DNA of 64,000 nt from a virus (taxonomy: Duplodnaviria; Caudoviricetes): IMG/VR virus record IMGVR_UViG_3300007214_000006. One strand, given 5' to 3'. A model generated the notes under the pieces. The model searched no databases. It worked only from the letters and a program-made list of their open reading frames with translations, and had not been told where the DNA came from. A program made the position numbers and the translations under genes. This document shows, one piece after another, positions 25,991 through 31,997 of the stretch; within the stretch, counting starts at the first letter, position 1; every line of letters begins with the position of its first letter.

Positions 25991-26589
25991 CCAAAATAAT
26001 AGCATTTGCTGGACGCAAGCAGTCTGGTAAGACAACATCTGCTGAATTTGTTTTAAATTTATTTAATAGTTTAGTCGCAAATAATCTGAATGATGGTATA
26101 GCTAAAATATATAATTTTGCAGATCCTCTTAAGACTTTATGTATAGACGTACTAGGTTTAGAATACAGACAATGCTATGGATCAGATACTGATAAAAATG
26201 AATTAGTTGACTGTTATTGGGATGGACATCAATTATCAGCAAGAGATGTTATGCAAATTGTGGGTACTGATATTTTTAGGAAAATGAAACAAAACGTATG
26301 GTCTGACGCTACCATTAGAAAAATCTTGAAAGAAAAACCAGATATTGCCATTATAGCAGATTGTAGATTTCCAAACGAAGTAGATGTTATAAAGTCTGTG
26401 AATGGTATCATTATCAAGCTGAATAGAAATCCATATAATTCATGTCATTCTAGTGAAATAGCATTGGATCATAATCAATACGATCAATCTATATTTGATT
26501 TAATCATAGAAAATCAAGATATGAATATAACAGAACAAAATAAAATTATCTATGATTTCATAAAATCAAGGAGCATACTACCATTATAA
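25987..26589 (+). CDS. Deoxynucleoside monophosphate kinase (T4 gp1-like)
   Basis: IIAFAGRKQSGKTT, FADPLK, RDVMQIVGTD, IIADCRFPNE. Confidence 0.88.
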   Translation: MTKIIAFAGRKQSGKTTSAEFVLNLFNSLVANNLNDGIAKIYNFADPLKTLCIDVLGLEYRQCYGSDTDKNELVDCYWDGHQLSARDVMQIVGTDIFRKMKQNVWSDATIRKILKEKPDIAIIADCRFPNEVDVIKSVNGIIIKLNRNPYNSCHSSEIALDHNQYDQSIFDLIIENQDMNITEQNKIIYDFIKSRSILPL

Positions 26590-27632
26590 TAACATATTTT
26601 AGATCGTCTAGCTTTAATGCTCATTCTATGTGCGAGCAGCAATATTTTATAGAATATGTTTTGGGTTGGAGAGGACCGTCTGGACAAAAGGCGGACAAAG
26701 GAACAATAGTACACAAAGTGCTAGAAGTATTAGCCGTTATTAAAAAAGCTAAACAAGATAATTTAACATTTATATGCGATGATATCATTGGTAATATTGA
26801 TATAAATAACTATAATCTTGATAATTTAATAGATATAATATACAACCATTACTCACTATCAGCAAAACATCATAAATGGTATCCAAAAGACAAAAAAGAC
26901 TGTGCAGAATGGGTTTATAAGGCTATTAATTTTAATGATGGTATGTTCGATCCCAGAAATAGAAATATTTTGGAACCAGAGCAGCATTTTGATTTTACTA
27001 TAAATAAATCTTGGTCACAATATTCTTATAAAACACCAGATGGAGTTATTTCAGGTAATCTGGCCCTAAAAGGAACTATAGACTTAATAACGTTAGTTAA
27101 TGAAAAAACTATAGAAATTATCGATTGGAAAACAGGAAAAAGATTAGATTGGGCTACTGGCCAAGAAAAAACTCAAGAAAAACTAGAAAATGATCCTCAA
27201 TTAAGAATATATCATTATGCTATCAGTCATTTGTATCCTCAGATCGAACATATAATTTTTTCTATATATTTTATAAATGATGGCGGACCATTCTCTATAT
27301 GTTTTGATAAAAATGATCTTCAAAAAACAGAAGATATGCTAAGACAAAAATTTGATATAATAAAGTCTGCAAAAAGGCCAAAATTGCACAAAAGCTGGAT
27401 GTGTAATAAACTATGTCATTTTGGCAAAACAAATTTTTCTGATTCAAGCATATTGCCTATATTAGAATACAGAGATGGGCAAATATGCAAACAGGGCGAA
27501 TTTATGACTAAATGTGAACAAATCAAACATGATTTAGAGTTGCATGGTATGGATTTTGTTGTACAATCATATAAGCATCCAAATCATTCATTTGGAAAAT
27601 ATAAAGCACCAGGAAGTATAGAAGGAGAATAA
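26583..27632 (+). CDS. PD-(D/E)XK (RecB/Cas4-like) exonuclease, probable AUU start
   Basis: RSSSF..HSMC..QY, KGTIVHKVLE, GTIDLI, IIDWKTG, QLRIY, CNKLC; SD AAGGAG 26568-26573 is 9 nt before in-frame ATT 26583; ORF track uses ATG 26628. Confidence 0.82.
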   Translation: MIITYFRSSSFNAHSMCEQQYFIEYVLGWRGPSGQKADKGTIVHKVLEVLAVIKKAKQDNLTFICDDIIGNIDINNYNLDNLIDIIYNHYSLSAKHHKWYPKDKKDCAEWVYKAINFNDGMFDPRNRNILEPEQHFDFTINKSWSQYSYKTPDGVISGNLALKGTIDLITLVNEKTIEIIDWKTGKRLDWATGQEKTQEKLENDPQLRIYHYAISHLYPQIEHIIFSIYFINDGGPFSICFDKNDLQKTEDMLRQKFDIIKSAKRPKLHKSWMCNKLCHFGKTNFSDSSILPILEYRDGQICKQGEFMTKCEQIKHDLELHGMDFVVQSYKHPNHSFGKYKAPGSIEGE

Positions 27633-27635
27633 GTA

Positions 27636-29513
27636 ATGGGCGTGATTAAGGAATATGTTCCTTTACACGTCCATTCCTAAGTGACTCATTATTCACTTTT
27701 GGATGGACTAAGTAAACCAGAACAAATAGCTAAACGATGTCAAAAAATAGGAGCAAGCACGTGTGCAATAACGGATCACGGGACCATATCCGGATCCGTT
27801 CAGTTTTATGCTTCTATGAAAAAATACGGAATTAAACCAATCCTAGGATGCGAATTATATATCAGTCATAATGATTGTATGATAAAAAGTCCAGATAATT
27901 CAAAATTAAGTCATTTCATAATTTTAGCTAAAAACTATGAGGGTTGGAAATCTTTAATAAAAATAGTATCTAAAACAAATACTCCTGATGTATTTTATCA
28001 TAAGCCAAGAATAGATATAGATACTTTGTTACCATACCTGGATGGCAATATTATTGGTTTTGCTGGTCATCTCGGTTCTGTTATAGCTAACGCCATAAAA
28101 GACCAGGATTCGAACTATACAATCAATTTGATTCAAAAATTAAAAGATGGTTTTGGTGAGAATAATTTTTTTCTTGAGTCTCAACTAATAGATCAAGAAC
28201 AAAATATTGATCAAATTAATTTAACAAAAGAAGTTAGAAGACTGGCACAGATCACAAAAACAAAAGTCATAGCTACTCCAGATGCTCATTATTGCGAATC
28301 TGATGATGCTGTTGATCAAAGAATTTTATTATGCAATAATTTAAAAACAACATTAACAGAGATAAATAGAAAGCTTATTGCAGATGAAGAGGCTCCTATG
28401 TCATGTTTTTTTAAATCTGATAAGTATCATATTCCAAATTTTGACGAAATGAATAATATACATTCTACAGAAGAGCTGTATAATACGATAGAATTAGCAA
28501 ATATGTGCGAAGATTATGATATTACAAATAAGCCAATGCTGCCTTTATTTAAATGTCCTAATTCTGATACTCCAGATGCATATCTTAGGCAATTATGTCG
28601 TAATGGATGGAAAGAAAAAATAGCCAATAATATACCTTCAAATATACAGGAAGAATATGTTGATAGAATCAAATACGAATTATCTGTTTTACAGGGCGCT
28701 GGGTTGTCCAGCTATTTTTTAATAGTGCAGGACATAGTGAACTATGTATCTTCTAATGGGTGGCTTCCTGGTCCCGGAAGAGGTAGCGCTGCTGGTTGTC
28801 TTGTGTCTTATCTAATAGGAATAACAAGTATAGATCCGATAAAAAATAATTTAATTTTTGAAAGATTCTATAATGCAGGAAGGAATACGAGCGACAGAGT
28901 TTCTATGCCAGATATAGATGTTGATGTTCCGATCAACAAACGAGAAGCTGTAGTAGAATATATAAAAAATAAATATGGCCATGATAAAGTGTCTCAAATG
29001 ATTACTTTTAATACGATGAAAGGTCGTGGCGCTCTTAAAGAAGTCCTTAGAGTTTATGGAAATATATCTTTTGACGAAATGAATAAAATTACAAAATACA
29101 TACCAGATGAAGCAAAAATAGCGGATGAATTACAAGAAATGAAAGAAGAAACAGGAGAGGCGTCCATTATTAGATGGGCTTTAGAAAATAATGTTGACAA
29201 ACTCAAGGAATGGTGTTATTTATTAGATGACGGTACGCTCGCCGGACCGCTTGCTAAAAGATTCGAACAAGCAATTAGACTAGAAGGAACCAAATCTAAT
29301 CAGTCAAAGCATGCTGCTGGAGTCGTTATATCTCAAGAAAAATTATCGGAGATTTGCCCAATGGTTTATGATAGTAAAAATAAACAGCTAATAGCAGGAA
29401 TGGAAATGCAAGATCTAGAATCTTTAGGTGTAATCAAATTTGATATCCTAGGCATAGCCATGTTAGATAAAATTATGAATATTTCACAAATATTAGCTAA
29501 AGAAGGAGTTTAA
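27636..29513 (+). CDS. dnaE: DNA polymerase III alpha, N-terminal half (PHP + palm/thumb), with an in-frame TAA at 27678-27680
   Basis: YVPLHVHS*VTHYSLLDG, ITDHG, ILGCE, TPDAHY, YFLIVQD, GPGRGSAAG, PDIDVD, KHAAGVVI, KFDILG. Confidence 0.9.
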
Positions 29514-29514
29514 A

Positions 29515-29694
29515 ATGAATAAAGTTTTTTCAGAATTAGCTATCGGAGATAGATTTGAACTAAATGGAAATAGTTATATTAAAATTCAAGAAGTAAGAGT
29601 TAGTTGTTGCAGATCAATAAATGCTCAGGACGCAAATAATCCGTCGAGCAAAACGTTTGTGCAAGCAACAACCACGGTGACAGTTAATGCCTAA
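29515..29694 (+). CDS. 59-aa hypothetical protein between the dnaE halves (below the ORF-track cutoff)
   Basis: SD AAGGAG (29502-29507); MNKVFSELAIGDRFELNGNSYIK...VRVSCCRSINA; overlaps the next ATG. Confidence 0.7.
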   Translation: MNKVFSELAIGDRFELNGNSYIKIQEVRVSCCRSINAQDANNPSSKTFVQATTTVTVNA

Positions 29695-30388
29695 TTTTCA
29701 AAAAATATGTGTGTTTGATATGGAAACTGACGGGGTTAACCCTGATCAGTGTAGTCCTGTGCAGATTGCTGCTGTTATTGTAGATCCAATAAAACTAGAA
29801 ATAGTTAAAGATTCCGAATTTAATATTAATTTAAAGCCAGAATTATTAGAAAATAATATAAGTTACAAATATGAAGATAGTGATGTTCTTGACTTTCATT
29901 CAAAAGTACGAGGTTGCTCCAAGTCTTCTATATTAGAATCTTGGGGCAAATACCAATCACAAGAGGCTGGTTGGAAAATGTTCGTTTCGTATCTTGAAAT
30001 GTATCATACAAAGTCTAACGGAACTAAAAAATCCTGCTTTTCTGCACCAATAGCTGCTGGCTTTAATATAAATAAATTTGATTTACGAATTATAGAGAGG
30101 CTTAGTGTAAAATATAATTCTCTAAATAAAGAAGGCAGATCCTCGTTGTTTTATCCCAGAGATGTAATTGATGTAATGAATCTTTTATTTTATTGGTTTG
30201 AATATAATAATGAACTTAAAAACTATACACTAGATAATCTAAGAGATTATTTGGGTATAGATAAAACTAATGCTCATGATGCATTAAAAGATGTGAAGGA
30301 CACAGCCAATATCATGATAAGGTTTTTAAAATTGCATAGAAACCTGTCTAATAAAGTTAAATTTAAAGGATCTTTTGTAAATGCCTAA
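29687..30388 (+). CDS. DEDDh 3'-5' exonuclease (DnaQ/epsilon-like)
   Basis: Exo I VFDMETDG, Exo II AGFNINKFD, Exo III HDALKD. Confidence 0.9.
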   Translation: MPNFQKICVFDMETDGVNPDQCSPVQIAAVIVDPIKLEIVKDSEFNINLKPELLENNISYKYEDSDVLDFHSKVRGCSKSSILESWGKYQSQEAGWKMFVSYLEMYHTKSNGTKKSCFSAPIAAGFNINKFDLRIIERLSVKYNSLNKEGRSSLFYPRDVIDVMNLLFYWFEYNNELKNYTLDNLRDYLGIDKTNAHDALKDVKDTANIMIRFLKLHRNLSNKVKFKGSFVNA

Positions 30389-31997
30389 ATGGTCTTTTGA
30401 TTGCGGATGTTGTTTTGATATCATTGAGAATAATGGAGAGAAACATAAGTTATTATTTTCTCCAAAAATTGAATCTATAAATTTATGTTGCGCTAAAACA
30501 TGGGAATTGATTTCTTCTGGAAACACTAAAGGATGTTTCCAGTTAGAATCTAGATTAGGCCAAATGATGGCTAAAAAATTAAAACCAGAAAATATAGAAC
30601 AATTATCTGGACTAATCAGTATACTTAGGCCGGGATGCCTAGAAGCAATAAGAGATGGGAAAAGCGTAACAAACCATTATATAGATAAAAAAAATGGTCT
30701 GGAATCTATTAATTATTTCCATGAGGCTCTGGAGACCTCATTAAGTACCACCTACGGGGAAATGATATACCAAGAACAGGCTATGTCTATCGCAAAAGAT
30801 TTGGCTGGATTCGATTTACAAGAAGCAGATTCTTTAAGAAAAGCTATCGGAAAAAAGAAACCAGAAGAAATGGCAAAAGTTAAACAAAAATTTTTAGATG
30901 GCACAAAAAAACTTAATATAGTCAATCAAAAAGAAGCAGAAGAAATCTTTGGATGGATAGAAAAAAGTCAAAGATATTCATTCAATAAATCTCACGGTAT
31001 TTCATATGCTATGAACGCATATTTATCGGCGTATGCTAAAGCCCATTTTCCGGAAGCCTTTTTTGTTTCTTATTTAAAATTTGCTAAGGACAAAATAGAC
31101 CCACAACAAGAAATCAAAGAATTAATTAAAAATGCCACGGAAATGGATATAAATATCTGTCTGCCAGATTTAAGACTACAAAACTCTAATTTCGGAATCT
31201 TTAATAATAAAATTTATTTTGGTTTAACAGACATAAAGGGTGTTGGGGACTCAGTGTTTGCTAAATTATCGGATATATGTAAAAATATTGATCTATATAA
31301 AATATCATGGACTGAACTGCTTATCAAAATTTTATTAAATATAAATTCCACAGCGGCTAAAGCTTTGATTTCTAGCGGAGCAATTGATTATCTTAATAAA
31401 AATCGTACAGAAATGTTGTTTGATCTAGAAATAATAAGCTCTCTTACTAAAAAAGAATTAGAATACATTGCGCCTATACTATCGAACACCATTACCTTAA
31501 AAGATATTATGAGTTATCTTATTAATTACTCAAAAGTGAATACAAAAAGAAAACAAGCAATACAAAGCTTATTGCAAACTATTAAAAATCCGCCGTATTC
31601 CTTAATAGATAAAATAGAATGGTTAGCAGATACGGAGTCATCTTTATTGGGTACGGCGATCTCTTGCTCAAAATTAGACACATATGACATAGAAATGACA
31701 AACACAGATTGCAAAACATTTAAAACTACAAATAGTATTTCTAATATTATAATGGCTGGAGAAATTACTAATATTAATATTATAAAAACAAAAAAAGGAA
31801 AATTATCCGGTCAAGAAATGTCTTTTGTCTCAATAGAAGATCAAACTGGTTCTCTAGATTCTGTGATATTTTTTCCAGAAATCTATGCAAAATATAAACA
31901 CCATTTATTCGAAAATAATATTTTAATATTTGTGGGAAATAAGAGCAAAACAAAGGATGGTTTGATTGTGGATAAGTGTTTTGTGCCTAGGTCTTGA
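30381..31997 (+). CDS. dnaE: DNA polymerase III alpha, C-terminal half (fingers, HhH, OB fold)
   Basis: TKGCFQLES, ILRPG, MIYQEQAM, ADSLRKAIGKKK, YSFNKSH, FGLTDIKGVG, OB fold AGEI...KTKKG..MSFVSIEDQTG. Confidence 0.92.
   Translation: MPKWSFDCGCCFDIIENNGEKHKLLFSPKIESINLCCAKTWELISSGNTKGCFQLESRLGQMMAKKLKPENIEQLSGLISILRPGCLEAIRDGKSVTNHYIDKKNGLESINYFHEALETSLSTTYGEMIYQEQAMSIAKDLAGFDLQEADSLRKAIGKKKPEEMAKVKQKFLDGTKKLNIVNQKEAEEIFGWIEKSQRYSFNKSHGISYAMNAYLSAYAKAHFPEAFFVSYLKFAKDKIDPQQEIKELIKNATEMDINICLPDLRLQNSNFGIFNNKIYFGLTDIKGVGDSVFAKLSDICKNIDLYKISWTELLIKILLNINSTAAKALISSGAIDYLNKNRTEMLFDLEIISSLTKKELEYIAPILSNTITLKDIMSYLINYSKVNTKRKQAIQSLLQTIKNPPYSLIDKIEWLADTESSLLGTAISCSKLDTYDIEMTNTDCKTFKTTNSISNIIMAGEITNINIIKTKKGKLSGQEMSFVSIEDQTGSLDSVIFFPEIYAKYKHHLFENNILIFVGNKSKTKDGLIVDKCFVPRS

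What the first reader, a model, noticed from the sequence alone, without database searches (positions are those of the whole stretch)
27621..27710. In-frame 9-nt stop-containing insert in the middle of the DnaE PHP metal-binding motif
Seen: SD GAAGGAG (27621-27627), then ATG 27636, reading M-G-V-I-K-E-Y-V-P-L-H-V-H-S-TAA-V-T-H-Y-S-L-L-D-G in one frame. Known: DnaE begins with LHxH(S/T)xYSLLDG, and the two His are PHP metal ligands. Deleting exactly 9 nt restores the motif. Removing TAAGTGACT gives HVHS-HYSLLDG; removing TCCTAAGTG gives HVHT-HYSLLDG, with the 5' exon ending in U and the excised piece ending in G, the group I intron boundary rule. The ORF-track start (GTG 27681) would lose both His ligands. 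Inference: a micro-intron or intron scar, a programmed ribosomal hop or readthrough, or a regulated switch between PHP-active and PHP-dead polymerase. An assembly collapse of a longer intron is the mundane alternative.
Basis: partly seen in the sequence, partly recalled or inferred. Interest (0 to 1): 0.85.

Follow-up and report, generated by a model that had tools for sequence, protein, structure and literature searches.

The report
Ribosome-hop cassette in phage dnaE
The 9-nt stop-containing insert in this freshwater phage's DNA polymerase gene is real and belongs to a conserved, homing-endonuclease-linked two-hairpin cassette with 8-12-nt gaps, which most likely makes ribosomes hop over the gap, a very rare way of decoding a gene.

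Summary
ATG 27636 opens a 14-codon mini-ORF (…YVPLHVHS) that ends at TAA 27678. The PHP motif resumes 9 nt later (HYSLLDG).

It is not an assembly artefact. The same 9-nt form occurs in contigs from at least 8 metagenomes and in an independent Logan contig.

Among relatives (69-90 % aa identity), 42 distinct 5' ends are uninterrupted (…HVHSHYSLLDG). 39 carry a stop-led gap of 8, 9, 10, 11 or 12 nt at exactly this site. All 39 share two covarying hairpins that the uninterrupted alleles lack:
- H1 is the whole mini-ORF.
- H2 holds the take-off Ser codon, the stop and the gap, paired to the downstream Ser-Leu codons.

29 of 39 have Ser codons on both sides of the gap, and 20 of 39 have no possible start codon. 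Seven carry an HNH homing endonuclease gene or its remnant abutting the mini-ORF; no uninterrupted allele does.

Best reading (about 0.6): a mobile endonuclease-plus-bypass cassette analogous to T4 mobA/gene 60, but independent and with a very short gap.

The window's own copy is the ambiguous subclass: its landing triplet is ACT, not Ser, and GTG is in frame, so reinitiation at GTG 27681 remains a live rival. No RNA or protein data exist. The scan had not found this on other DNA.

The parts
27621..27627 (+). Shine-Dalgarno sequence (GAAGGAG) of the mini-ORF. AAGGAGAATA..ATG is shared with cassettes in which this stretch is the 3' end of the endonuclease gene.
27636..27677 (+). Mini-ORF, 14 codons (MGVIKEYVPLHVHS). 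It encodes the N-terminal strand and the HxH metal ligands of the PHP domain.
   Evidence: Length is always a multiple of 3 in all 39 elements, and P-L-H-V-H-S is invariant with synonymous variation.
27636..27674 (+). Hairpin H1. Outer stem 27636-27644 pairs with 27666-27674 (the start codon pairs with the second His codon). Inner stem 27648-27653 pairs with 27658-27663. Loop 27654-27657.
   Evidence: 99.1 % of outer-stem cells are paired, with a GC/AU compensatory pair. Absent from insert-free alleles.
27675..27677 (+). Take-off codon TCC (Ser14). It is base-paired with GGA 27701-27703 as the lower stem of H2.
   Evidence: TCY in 39 of 39 elements
27678..27680 (+). [quoted passage not shown]
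   Evidence: TAA in 21 and TAG in 18 of 39 elements.
27678..27686 (+). Coding gap, 9 nt (TAAGTGACT). Homologous gaps in relatives are 8-12 nt.
27684..27686 (+). Landing-position triplet ACT. It is a Ser TCN codon in 29 of 39 relatives. The second base is C in 39 of 39 although it is unpaired.
   Evidence: ACT aligns with Thr14 of Taq Pol III alpha if read as a codon.
27675..27703 (+). Hairpin H2 (take-off stem-loop). Lower stem 27675-27677 pairs with 27701-27703. Upper stem 27679-27684 pairs with 27693-27698 (the Ser-Leu codons). Loop 27685-27692.
   Evidence: 97.9 % of cells are paired and three pairs show changes on both sides.
27681..27683 (+). GTG, in frame with the downstream ORF. It is the ORF-caller's start and the possible reinitiation codon of the rival explanation.
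27687..29513 (+). Main body of the DnaE N-half (PHP + palm), resuming at CAT (His). The seven other PHP metal ligands are present.
26628..27632 (+). Upstream PD-(D/E)XK nuclease gene. Its stop lies 3 nt before the mini-ORF ATG. In related loci the HNH endonuclease gene sits between this gene and the mini-ORF.

Best explanation
The insert is the coding gap of a programmed translational bypass (a short ribosomal hop). It is part of a cassette spread by a free-standing HNH homing endonuclease.

Proposed course of events (inferred, not shown):
1. Ribosomes start at ATG 27636 and translate 14 codons.
2. They stall with peptidyl-tRNA(Ser) on TCC 27675-27677 in the P site and TAA in the A site.
3. 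The take-off codon and the stop sit on the 5' side of hairpin H2.
4. The 3' arm of hairpin H1 lies just behind the P site, while its 5' arm has already left the ribosome.
5. Refolding of H1 at the mRNA exit, together with H2 at the A site, would detach the tRNA from the codon and pull the mRNA forward by 8-12 nt.
6. The retained tRNA re-pairs at the triplet before the resume codon, which is Ser TCN in most relatives and near-cognate ACT in this window.
7. Decoding resumes at CAT 27687 and gives ...PLHVHS-HYSLLDG..., the sequence of uninterrupted relatives.

The gap probably exists because it breaks the endonuclease's target in the conserved PHP-motif DNA, as in T4 mobA/gene 60 (inferred).

What is shown: the anatomy, the conservation, the covariation, the frame independence of the gap and the endonuclease linkage. 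What is inferred: the hop itself and the driving role of H1.
For: (1) Relatives: 42 distinct uninterrupted 5' ends versus 39 distinct elements with a gap of 8 (1), 9 (8), 10 (13), 11 (15) or 12 (2) nt at the same codon boundary.
(2) Sister lineages differ by 1 nt in the gap with intact ORFs: L094 with 11 nt versus L075 with 12 nt. Gaps that differ by a single G also occur: L236 with 9 nt versus L147 with 8 nt.
(3) Mini-ORF lengths are only 39, 42 or 45 nt and the stop is in frame in 39 of 39. P-L-H-V-H-S is invariant while the Pro, Leu and His codons vary synonymously.
(4) Take-off and landing codons are both Ser in 29 of 39 (plus L082). The landing triplet's second base is C in 39 of 39 although unpaired.
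(5) 20 of 39 have no ATG, GTG or TTG in the downstream frame before the conserved core. L095/L018 and L084/L087 have TGA in that frame inside the gap, which excludes a simple shift at the stop.
(6) Two hairpins are present in all 39. 92.5 % of cells are paired versus 33-56 % when the partners are slid. 41 cells change on both sides versus 12.6 +/- 4.6 in shuffles (0 of 500 reach the observed value). Mean dG is -26.3 versus -3.6 kcal/mol for insert-free alleles.
(7) The other seven PHP metal ligands are invariant in 84 of 84 distinct proteins of all classes.
(8) An HNH endonuclease gene (4 full-length, 3 remnants) abuts the mini-ORF in 7 of 39 elements and in 0 of 42 insert-free alleles.
(9) Elements are scattered on the DnaE tree, with at least 7 changes forced by well-supported branches. 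They are 85-96 % identical where flanking dnaE is 55-71 % identical.
(10) The architecture matches published bypass signals: a stop after the take-off codon, the take-off codon on the 5' side of a stem-loop, a 5' stem-loop proposed to propel the mRNA forward, and linkage to a homing endonuclease. A 10-nt gap precedent exists in phiHau3.
Against: There is no protein, ribosome or RNA evidence; no RNA run holds the sequence. In this window the landing triplet is ACT, not Ser, and GTG 27681 is in frame, so termination-reinitiation could serve here. Six elements (the ATG class) carry ATG as the resume codon, so they could use reinitiation. H1 sequesters the start codon, which should hinder initiation. 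The nascent chain is only 14 residues, whereas T4 gene 60 depends on a longer nascent-peptide signal. In gene 60 homologues the 5' stem-loop is not conserved, so its driving role is itself debated. Two TCC-to-TCA pairs need an unusual wobble.
Confidence: 0.6

Rival explanations
1. Termination-reinitiation (a further split of the gene). Ribosomes finish the 14-residue mini-ORF at TAA and restart at the adjacent GTG 27681 (ATG in some relatives). The polymerase would then begin (M)THYSLLDG without the HxH ligands. The peptide would be discarded or would bind in trans.
For: In the window TAA is directly followed by an in-frame GTG. All ACT-class elements that resume at a His codon keep GTG in the downstream frame, including the 8-nt one. 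Six elements have ATG as the resume codon behind an SD-like AGGTGG or AAGTGA. This DnaE is already split into two genes. The elements with a non-Ser landing triplet are those that have such a start codon.
Against: 20 of 39 elements have no canonical start in the downstream frame. Two sequence types also lack the in-frame TTG at Leu. The mini-ORF keeps the PHP residues with synonymous-only change, and the seven other ligands stay invariant even in the GTG and ATG classes. The landing triplet keeps C at position 2 in 39 of 39.
Confidence: 0.2
2. The gap is removed at the RNA level (a micro-intron, or cut-and-ligate editing guided by H1 and H2), so the mature mRNA is uninterrupted.
For: Frame independence of the gap and the two conserved helices flanking it would also fit a structure-guided RNA processing site.
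Against: No known self-splicing or enzymatic system removes 8-12 nt. Nothing in Rfam matches. Excision gives no reason for an in-frame stop right after the Ser codon in 39 of 39 elements, for a mini-ORF kept in triplets, or for duplicated Ser codons. Not tested: no RNA run holds the sequence.
Confidence: 0.07
3. Class-specific recoding that keeps the gap translated: readthrough for 9- and 12-nt gaps, +1 shift for 10-nt gaps, -1 or +2 shift for 8- and 11-nt gaps. This would give a 3-4 residue insertion between HxH and HYSLLDG.
For: The window's gap is in frame. Stops are known shift and readthrough sites, and nearby hairpins stimulate both.
Against: It needs three different mechanisms for one conserved element. 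TGA blocks the shifted frame in L095/L018 and L084/L087. There is no slippery sequence on which tRNA(Ser) could re-pair after a 1-nt shift. The spacing HxH-(S/T)-x-(Y/F)-S-L-(L/M)-D-G is fixed in all 42 uninterrupted relatives and in Taq Pol III. No tRNA gene is found in the window.
Confidence: 0.06
4. A decaying scar: an endonuclease-borne insertion that inactivated the PHP N-terminus. The polymerase works without it, and nothing is recoded.
For: A separate DnaQ-like exonuclease gene lies between the DnaE halves, so PHP proofreading might be dispensable. The endonuclease gene is lost or decayed in most elements.
Against: The element is far more conserved than the flanking coding DNA. Both helices show compensatory changes. 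The mini-ORF stays open and in triplets. All other PHP ligands are invariant. Many elements leave the main ORF without a start codon.
Confidence: 0.04
5. Assembly or sequencing artefact, or a collapsed longer intron.
For: None was found.
Against: The same 9-nt form occurs in contigs of at least 8 datasets and in an independent Logan contig. 10- and 11-nt variants occur in the same sample. No relative has a long insert at this site.
Confidence: 0.01

Closest known systems
Phage T4 gene 60 bypass cassette with the MobA HNH homing endonuclease (Manning & Atkins, bioRxiv 10.1101/2022.08.31.505936; read)
   Same: A stop codon lies directly after the take-off codon. The take-off codon is on the 5' side of a stem-loop. 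A further stem-loop lies 5' of it. Take-off and landing codons match in most members. A free-standing HNH endonuclease gene lies immediately upstream and is often decayed or lost. The cassette has a patchy, mobile-looking distribution in an essential replication gene. An N-terminal extension has been added to the downstream ORF.
   Different: The gene differs: dnaE PHP motif rather than topoisomerase II. The gap is 8-12 nt rather than 50 nt. The landing codon lies in the loop of the take-off hairpin, and the hairpin's 3' arm is coding. Take-off is at codon 14, so no long nascent-peptide signal is possible. The 5' hairpin contains the start codon and is the best conserved feature, whereas in gene 60 homologues it is not conserved. 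No sequence similarity to that cassette was seen. Whether the endonuclease is related to MobA was not tested.
Streptomyces phage phiHau3 terminase g6/7/8 candidate bypassing (Antonov et al. 2023, PMC10732093)
   Same: It is a phage gene interrupted by short blocks of about 10 nt. mRNA secondary structure surrounds the site and a purine-rich, SD-like element lies nearby. Bypassing was supported there by mass spectrometry of a junction peptide in E. coli.
   Different: There the slow codon is the rare UUA and the event is proposed to be regulatory. No homing endonuclease is involved. Only four sites in three genes were reported, against 39 distinct elements here. The signals sit in different positions.
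Low-efficiency 'hops' over a stop or hungry codon in E. coli ('forward hops', reference 47 of PMC10732093; summarised)
   Same: One amino acid is specified by about 9 nt: the peptidyl-tRNA leaves its codon at a slow A-site codon and re-pairs a few nucleotides downstream, independent of frame.
   Different: Those hops are unprogrammed or synthetic and inefficient. Here a dedicated, conserved, structured element sits in an essential gene.
Mitochondrial 'byp' elements of Magnusiomyces capitatus (as summarised)
   Same: They are mobile inserts bypassed during translation, with a non-decodable codon after take-off.
   Different: They are 27-55 nt long, occur in mitochondria as GC-cluster-like elements with many copies per genome, and have no endonuclease partner.

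Membership tests
Programmed translational bypassing (general definition) | Two ORF segments that together encode one protein colinear with uninterrupted homologues, separated by a non-coding gap | tested here: met
   mini-ORF ...PLHVHS plus HYSLLDG... equals the relatives' ...PLHVHSHYSLLDG.
Programmed translational bypassing (general definition) | Decoding across the gap is independent of frame (gap length is not constrained to triplets) | tested here: met
   gaps of 8, 9, 10, 11 and 12 nt. Sister lineages differ by 1 nt. By contrast, mini-ORF lengths are only multiples of 3.
Programmed translational bypassing (general definition) | A slow-to-decode codon (stop or rare codon) in the A site at take-off | tested here: met
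   TAA in 21 and TAG in 18 of 39; the window has TAA 27678-27680.
Programmed translational bypassing (general definition) | Matched take-off and landing codons read by one tRNA | tested here: inconclusive
   Ser/Ser in 29 of 39 relatives. The window has TCC versus ACT, matching at 2 of 3 positions. Position 2 is C in 39 of 39.
Programmed translational bypassing (general definition) | A single polypeptide spanning the junction is made | not testable with these tools
   It needs mass spectrometry or a reporter assay. No RNA or protein data were available.
T4 gene 60 / MobA cassette | Inserted in the topoisomerase II large-subunit gene with a gap of about 50 nt | tested here: not met
   The host gene is dnaE and the gap is 8-12 nt.
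T4 gene 60 / MobA cassette | Take-off codon on the 5' side of a conserved take-off stem-loop | tested here: met
   TCY pairs with GGA, and stop plus gap pairs with the Ser-Leu codons; 97.9 % of cells are paired.
T4 gene 60 / MobA cassette | An HNH homing endonuclease gene is part of the same element | tested here: inconclusive
   An HNH-type gene or its remnant abuts 7 of 39 elements and 0 of 42 insert-free alleles. The window itself has none. Relatedness to MobA and homing activity were not tested.
T4 gene 60 / MobA cassette | A nascent-peptide signal in the exit tunnel is required for take-off | not testable with these tools
   Only 14 residues have been made at take-off, and they are constrained by PHP function anyway.
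   The insert is 8-12 nt. There is no Rfam match in 27400-27900, and no relative has a long insert.
Termination-reinitiation coupling | A usable start codon in the downstream frame at or near the stop | tested here: inconclusive
   Met in the window (TAA then GTG) and in the ATG class. Not met in 20 of 39 elements.
DnaE PHP domain with intact metal site | Nine metal ligands including the N-terminal HxH | tested here: met
   Seven ligands are in the main ORF and are invariant in 84 of 84 proteins. HxH is encoded only in the mini-ORF.

The most novel reading that the evidence does not exclude
This would be an independent, previously undescribed family of programmed translational bypass elements. 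The hop is 8-12 nt and occurs at codon 14 of a phage dnaE gene. It would be driven mainly by refolding of a start-codon-containing hairpin behind the ribosome and a take-off hairpin in front, without a long nascent-peptide signal. It would be carried by an HNH homing endonuclease as a mobile cassette that protects its own target site. In the GTG and ATG subclasses, which include this window, the same element may yield two products: a PHP-complete polymerase by hopping and a PHP-truncated one by reinitiation.
Probability: 0.55. Interest if true: 0.88.

Novelty: new variant of a known kind. Interest (0 to 1): 0.8.

Why it matters
Efficient natural bypassing is known from very few systems: the T4 gene 60 cassette and its homologues, yeast mitochondrial byps, and a candidate in phiHau3.

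An independent family with 39 natural variants would be a ready-made mutational series for a debated question: whether mRNA refolding at the ribosome exit drives forward sliding. The variants have gaps of 8-12 nt, two covarying helices, and both cognate and near-cognate landing codons.

It would also show that bypassing can work after only 14 codons. And it would show that free-standing homing endonucleases have more than once used a bypass gap, rather than an intron or intein, to invade a conserved site of an essential gene.

In practice, gene callers truncate these dnaE genes, or leave them without a start, and so drop two PHP metal ligands. Annotations of this freshwater phage group need a join across the gap.

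Tried and rejected
- Near-identical DNA in cultured phages: none. The best phage proteins are about 35 % identical.
- Whole genome of the window: not held.
- tRNA or suppressor tRNA genes in the window: none.
- Rfam families at 27400-27900: none.
- A second copy of the element elsewhere in the window or in 38 loci, using covariance model R1: none. The extra weak hits are the palindromic H1 read on the opposite strand.
- RNA runs: none holds the window's sequence or its commonest variant, so RNA excision could not be tested.
- Pfam on the endonuclease gave only weak HTH hits. PHROGs and tblastn were needed to name it.
It gave one true hit, L332, an 8-kb contig binned with a Chitinophagia MAG, which is a weak host hint only.
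- The inner stem of H1 does not align column by column because its register shifts between variants (69 % paired), although each sequence folds an inner stem.
- His-to-His hopping (CAT to CAY) was considered and rejected, because it would delete two motif residues.
- An SD-like role for the purine-rich gap was considered. The gap bases covary with the Ser-Leu codons, so pairing within H2 explains them better.
- Literature searches found no report of bypassing in dnaE.
Full report
**The observation**

GAAGGAG lies at 27621-27627. ATG 27636 opens a 14-codon frame, MGVIKEYVPLHVHS, which ends at TAA 27678-27680. The next codons, GTG ACT CAT TAT TCA CTT TTG GAT GG, read V-T-H-Y-S-L-L-D-G. The mechanical ORF list starts the gene at GTG 27681.

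Pfam shows that 27681-29513 holds the PHP domain and the Pol III alpha palm domain. A second gene at 30381-31997 holds the fingers, HhH and OB domains. A 59-aa ORF and a DnaQ-like exonuclease gene lie between the two. The window looks like a large freshwater phage: about 30 % G+C, giant ORFs, no close cultured relative, and holders that are reservoir and freshwater metagenomes.

**Not an artefact**

The identical 9-nt form occurs in IMG/VR contigs from at least eight datasets. An independent Logan contig from a 2025 reservoir metagenome crosses the site without gaps. The same sample also holds 10- and 11-nt variants from related phages.

**What relatives show**

Eighty related loci (69-90 % aa identity) were fetched first, and pattern scans of the viral and metagenome collections added more. 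In total there are 42 distinct uninterrupted 5' ends, reading M-K-x-Y-I-P-L-H-V-H-S-H-Y-S-L-L-D-G or close variants. There are also 39 distinct interrupted ones.

In every interrupted allele the break is at the same place, directly after the Ser codon that follows HxH, and it begins with TAA (21) or TAG (18). Counting the stop, the gap is 8 nt in 1 element, 9 nt in 8, 10 nt in 13, 11 nt in 15 and 12 nt in 2 (plus L082).

Sister lineages on the DnaE tree differ by a single nucleotide in the gap, yet both keep intact downstream frames: L094 has 11 nt and L075 has 12 nt. Gaps that differ by one G also occur: L236 has 9 nt and L147 has 8 nt. By contrast, the mini-ORF is always 39, 42 or 45 nt long up to and including the Ser codon, and the stop is always in frame with it. 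The residues P-L-H-V-H-S never change, although the Pro, Leu and first His codons vary synonymously. So the stretch before the stop behaves as translated sequence, and the gap behaves as untranslated, frame-indifferent sequence.

**Two hairpins**

Every interrupted allele folds into two adjacent hairpins.

- H1 is the whole mini-ORF. The start codon and the next two codons pair with the H-V-H codons, and an inner stem pairs the N-terminal extension with the Pro-Leu codons.
- H2 begins with the take-off Ser codon paired to GGA of the Leu-Asp codons. It continues with the stop and gap paired to the downstream Ser-Leu codons.

In the window:

| Feature | Coordinates |
|---|---|
| H1, whole hairpin | 27636-27674 |
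| H2, whole hairpin | 27675-27703 |

The window's element has dG -26.1 kcal/mol and z = -5.15 against shuffles.

On a structure-guided alignment of the 39 elements:
- 92.5 % of cells are paired, against 33-56 % when the partners are slid.
- 41 cells change on both sides, against 12.6 +/- 4.6 in shuffles; 0 of 500 shuffles reach the observed value.
- The outer H1 stem is 99.1 % paired and H2 is 97.9 % paired.
- Compensatory pairs include GC/AU in H1 and UA/AU/CG in H2.

In both hairpins the constrained arm is the conserved PHP coding sequence. The adapting arm is dispensable sequence: the three-residue N-terminal extension in H1 and the gap in H2. Uninterrupted alleles have no such structure over the same codons: mean dG is -3.6 +/- 1.7 against -26.3 +/- 2.4 kcal/mol. 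The covariance model finds no second copy in the window, and Rfam has nothing like it.

**What the rival mechanisms would need**

The triplet just before the resume codon is a Ser codon (TCT, TCA or TCC) in 29 of 39 elements, so Ser codons flank the gap as matched take-off and landing codons. Its second base is C in 39 of 39, although it is unpaired in the predicted fold of 38. The middle of the gap, by contrast, has 14 different versions.

Twenty of the 39 elements, including 14 of the 15 eleven-nt elements (L229 resumes at ATG), have no ATG, GTG or TTG in the downstream frame before the conserved core. In L095/L018 and L084/L087 a TGA closes that frame inside the gap, so a one-step frameshift at the stop cannot work.

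The seven PHP metal ligands encoded in the main ORF are invariant in all 84 distinct proteins, whatever the class. This argues that the metal site, and therefore the HxH pair encoded only in the mini-ORF, is still in use.

**A mobile cassette**

The interrupted alleles are scattered over the DnaE tree; well-supported branches force at least seven gains or losses. The 71-nt element is 85-96 % identical between phages whose adjoining dnaE DNA is only 55-71 % identical.

In four distinct elements, a gene of about 240 codons lies between the upstream PD-(D/E)XK nuclease gene and the mini-ORF, and overlaps the mini-ORF's first codons. These are L082/L186, L087/L102, L098 and L106. Three more elements keep only a 34-77-residue C-terminal remnant. 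None of the 42 uninterrupted alleles has it there. PHROGs and annotated phage genomes identify it as an HNH-type endonuclease with an N-terminal HTH.

The window has lost this gene. Only AAGGAGAATA..ATG, which in the endonuclease-bearing loci is the 3' end of that gene, remains in front of the mini-ORF.

**Mechanism**

The anatomy matches, point for point, the signals described for T4 gene 60:
- a stop right after the take-off codon;
- the take-off codon on the 5' side of a stem-loop;
- a further stem-loop 5' of it, proposed to propel the mRNA forward as it re-forms at the ribosome exit;
- matched take-off and landing codons;
- an HNH homing endonuclease whose target the gap protects.

The closest precedent in gap length is the pair of 10-nt gaps in the phiHau3 terminase gene, where a junction peptide was seen by mass spectrometry.

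I therefore read the family as a programmed short hop. Geometry adds an inference. With Ser14 in the P site, the 3' arm of H1 lies in the exit channel while its 5' arm is already outside. Completing H1 therefore requires the mRNA to slide forward by roughly the length of the gap. None of this has been shown experimentally.

**The window's own copy**

The window belongs to a subclass in which the landing triplet is ACT and GTG is in frame with the downstream ORF. This subclass has five distinct sequences in the model alignment (the window, L085, L088, L236 and L147). Six other elements have ATG as the resume codon. In these two subclasses termination-reinitiation is possible.

It is notable that almost all elements with a non-Ser landing triplet belong to these two subclasses. 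Against reinitiation, they keep both hairpins, the PHP residues of the mini-ORF, all other metal ligands, and the C and T of the landing triplet. For the window I would put the odds at roughly 55:30 for hopping with near-cognate landing against reinitiation at GTG 27681. Both may occur.

**Comparison and novelty**

Full-text searches found bypassing reported only for gene 60 homologues in topoisomerase genes, for yeast mitochondrial byps and for the phiHau3 candidate. Nothing was found for dnaE.

The element is not a member of the gene 60 family: the gene differs, the gap is 8-12 nt rather than 50 nt, and no sequence similarity to that cassette was seen. It appears to work like gene 60. It also differs in ways that matter:
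- take-off occurs at codon 14, which leaves no room for a long nascent-peptide signal;
- the landing codon lies in the take-off loop;
- the 5' hairpin is the best conserved feature here, whereas it is not conserved among gene 60 homologues.

I class it as a new variant of a known kind, with high interest, subject to experimental proof.

Noticed in passing
window 27681-31997: DnaE is split into two genes without inteins: PHP + palm at 27681-29513 and fingers/HhH/OB at 30381-31997. A 59-aa ORF (29515-29694) and a DnaQ-like 3'-5' exonuclease gene (29687-30388) lie between them.
   Followed up: partly
window 26556-26660: The PD-(D/E)XK nuclease frame is open upstream of ATG 26628 and encodes ...TTIIITYFRSSSFNAHS.
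   Followed up: partly
L019, L023, L044/L045, L087/L102, L094 (upstream of dnaE): Paralogues of the same HNH endonuclease family (about 29-47 % identity) occur at other positions in these loci. In L044 the paralogue lies between the dNMP kinase and nuclease genes, about 1.1 kb upstream of the dnaE site; in L019 and L023 it lies 1.2 kb upstream. The family therefore seems to have at least one more insertion site in these phages.
   Followed up: no
L082:1510-1582: This endonuclease-bearing element reads H-D-S-L-L-D-G after the gap (CAC GAC TCA) instead of H-Y/F-S. It is the only element with a change in that motif residue.
   Followed up: no
window 27647-27730, run X1: One reservoir metagenome holds the 9-nt form together with 10- and 11-nt variants from related phages, so interrupted alleles of different gap length co-occur in one habitat.
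   Followed up: partly
L081, L101, L114, L118, L201 (10-nt class): The Tyr-Val codons in the H1 loop create an out-of-frame ATG that opens the downstream frame 33 nt before the core (M-F-L-Y-T-S-I-L-R-E-S-HYSLLDG in L081, L101 and L114). Gene callers may pick it. It is absent from other 10-nt elements, so it looks incidental.
   Followed up: partly
L332 (contig RFVO01000077.1): The only hit in the species-representative genome collection is an 8.1-kb contig binned in a Chitinophagia MAG. It carries the same element sequence as L084. This is a weak host hint or a binning error, and the strong AAGGAG ribosome-binding sites argue against a Bacteroidota host.
   Followed up: no
window 41208-63868, minus strand: Three giant ORFs of 2368, 1984 and 1967 aa, plus several smaller ones, lie on the opposite strand. 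They were not examined.
   Followed up: no
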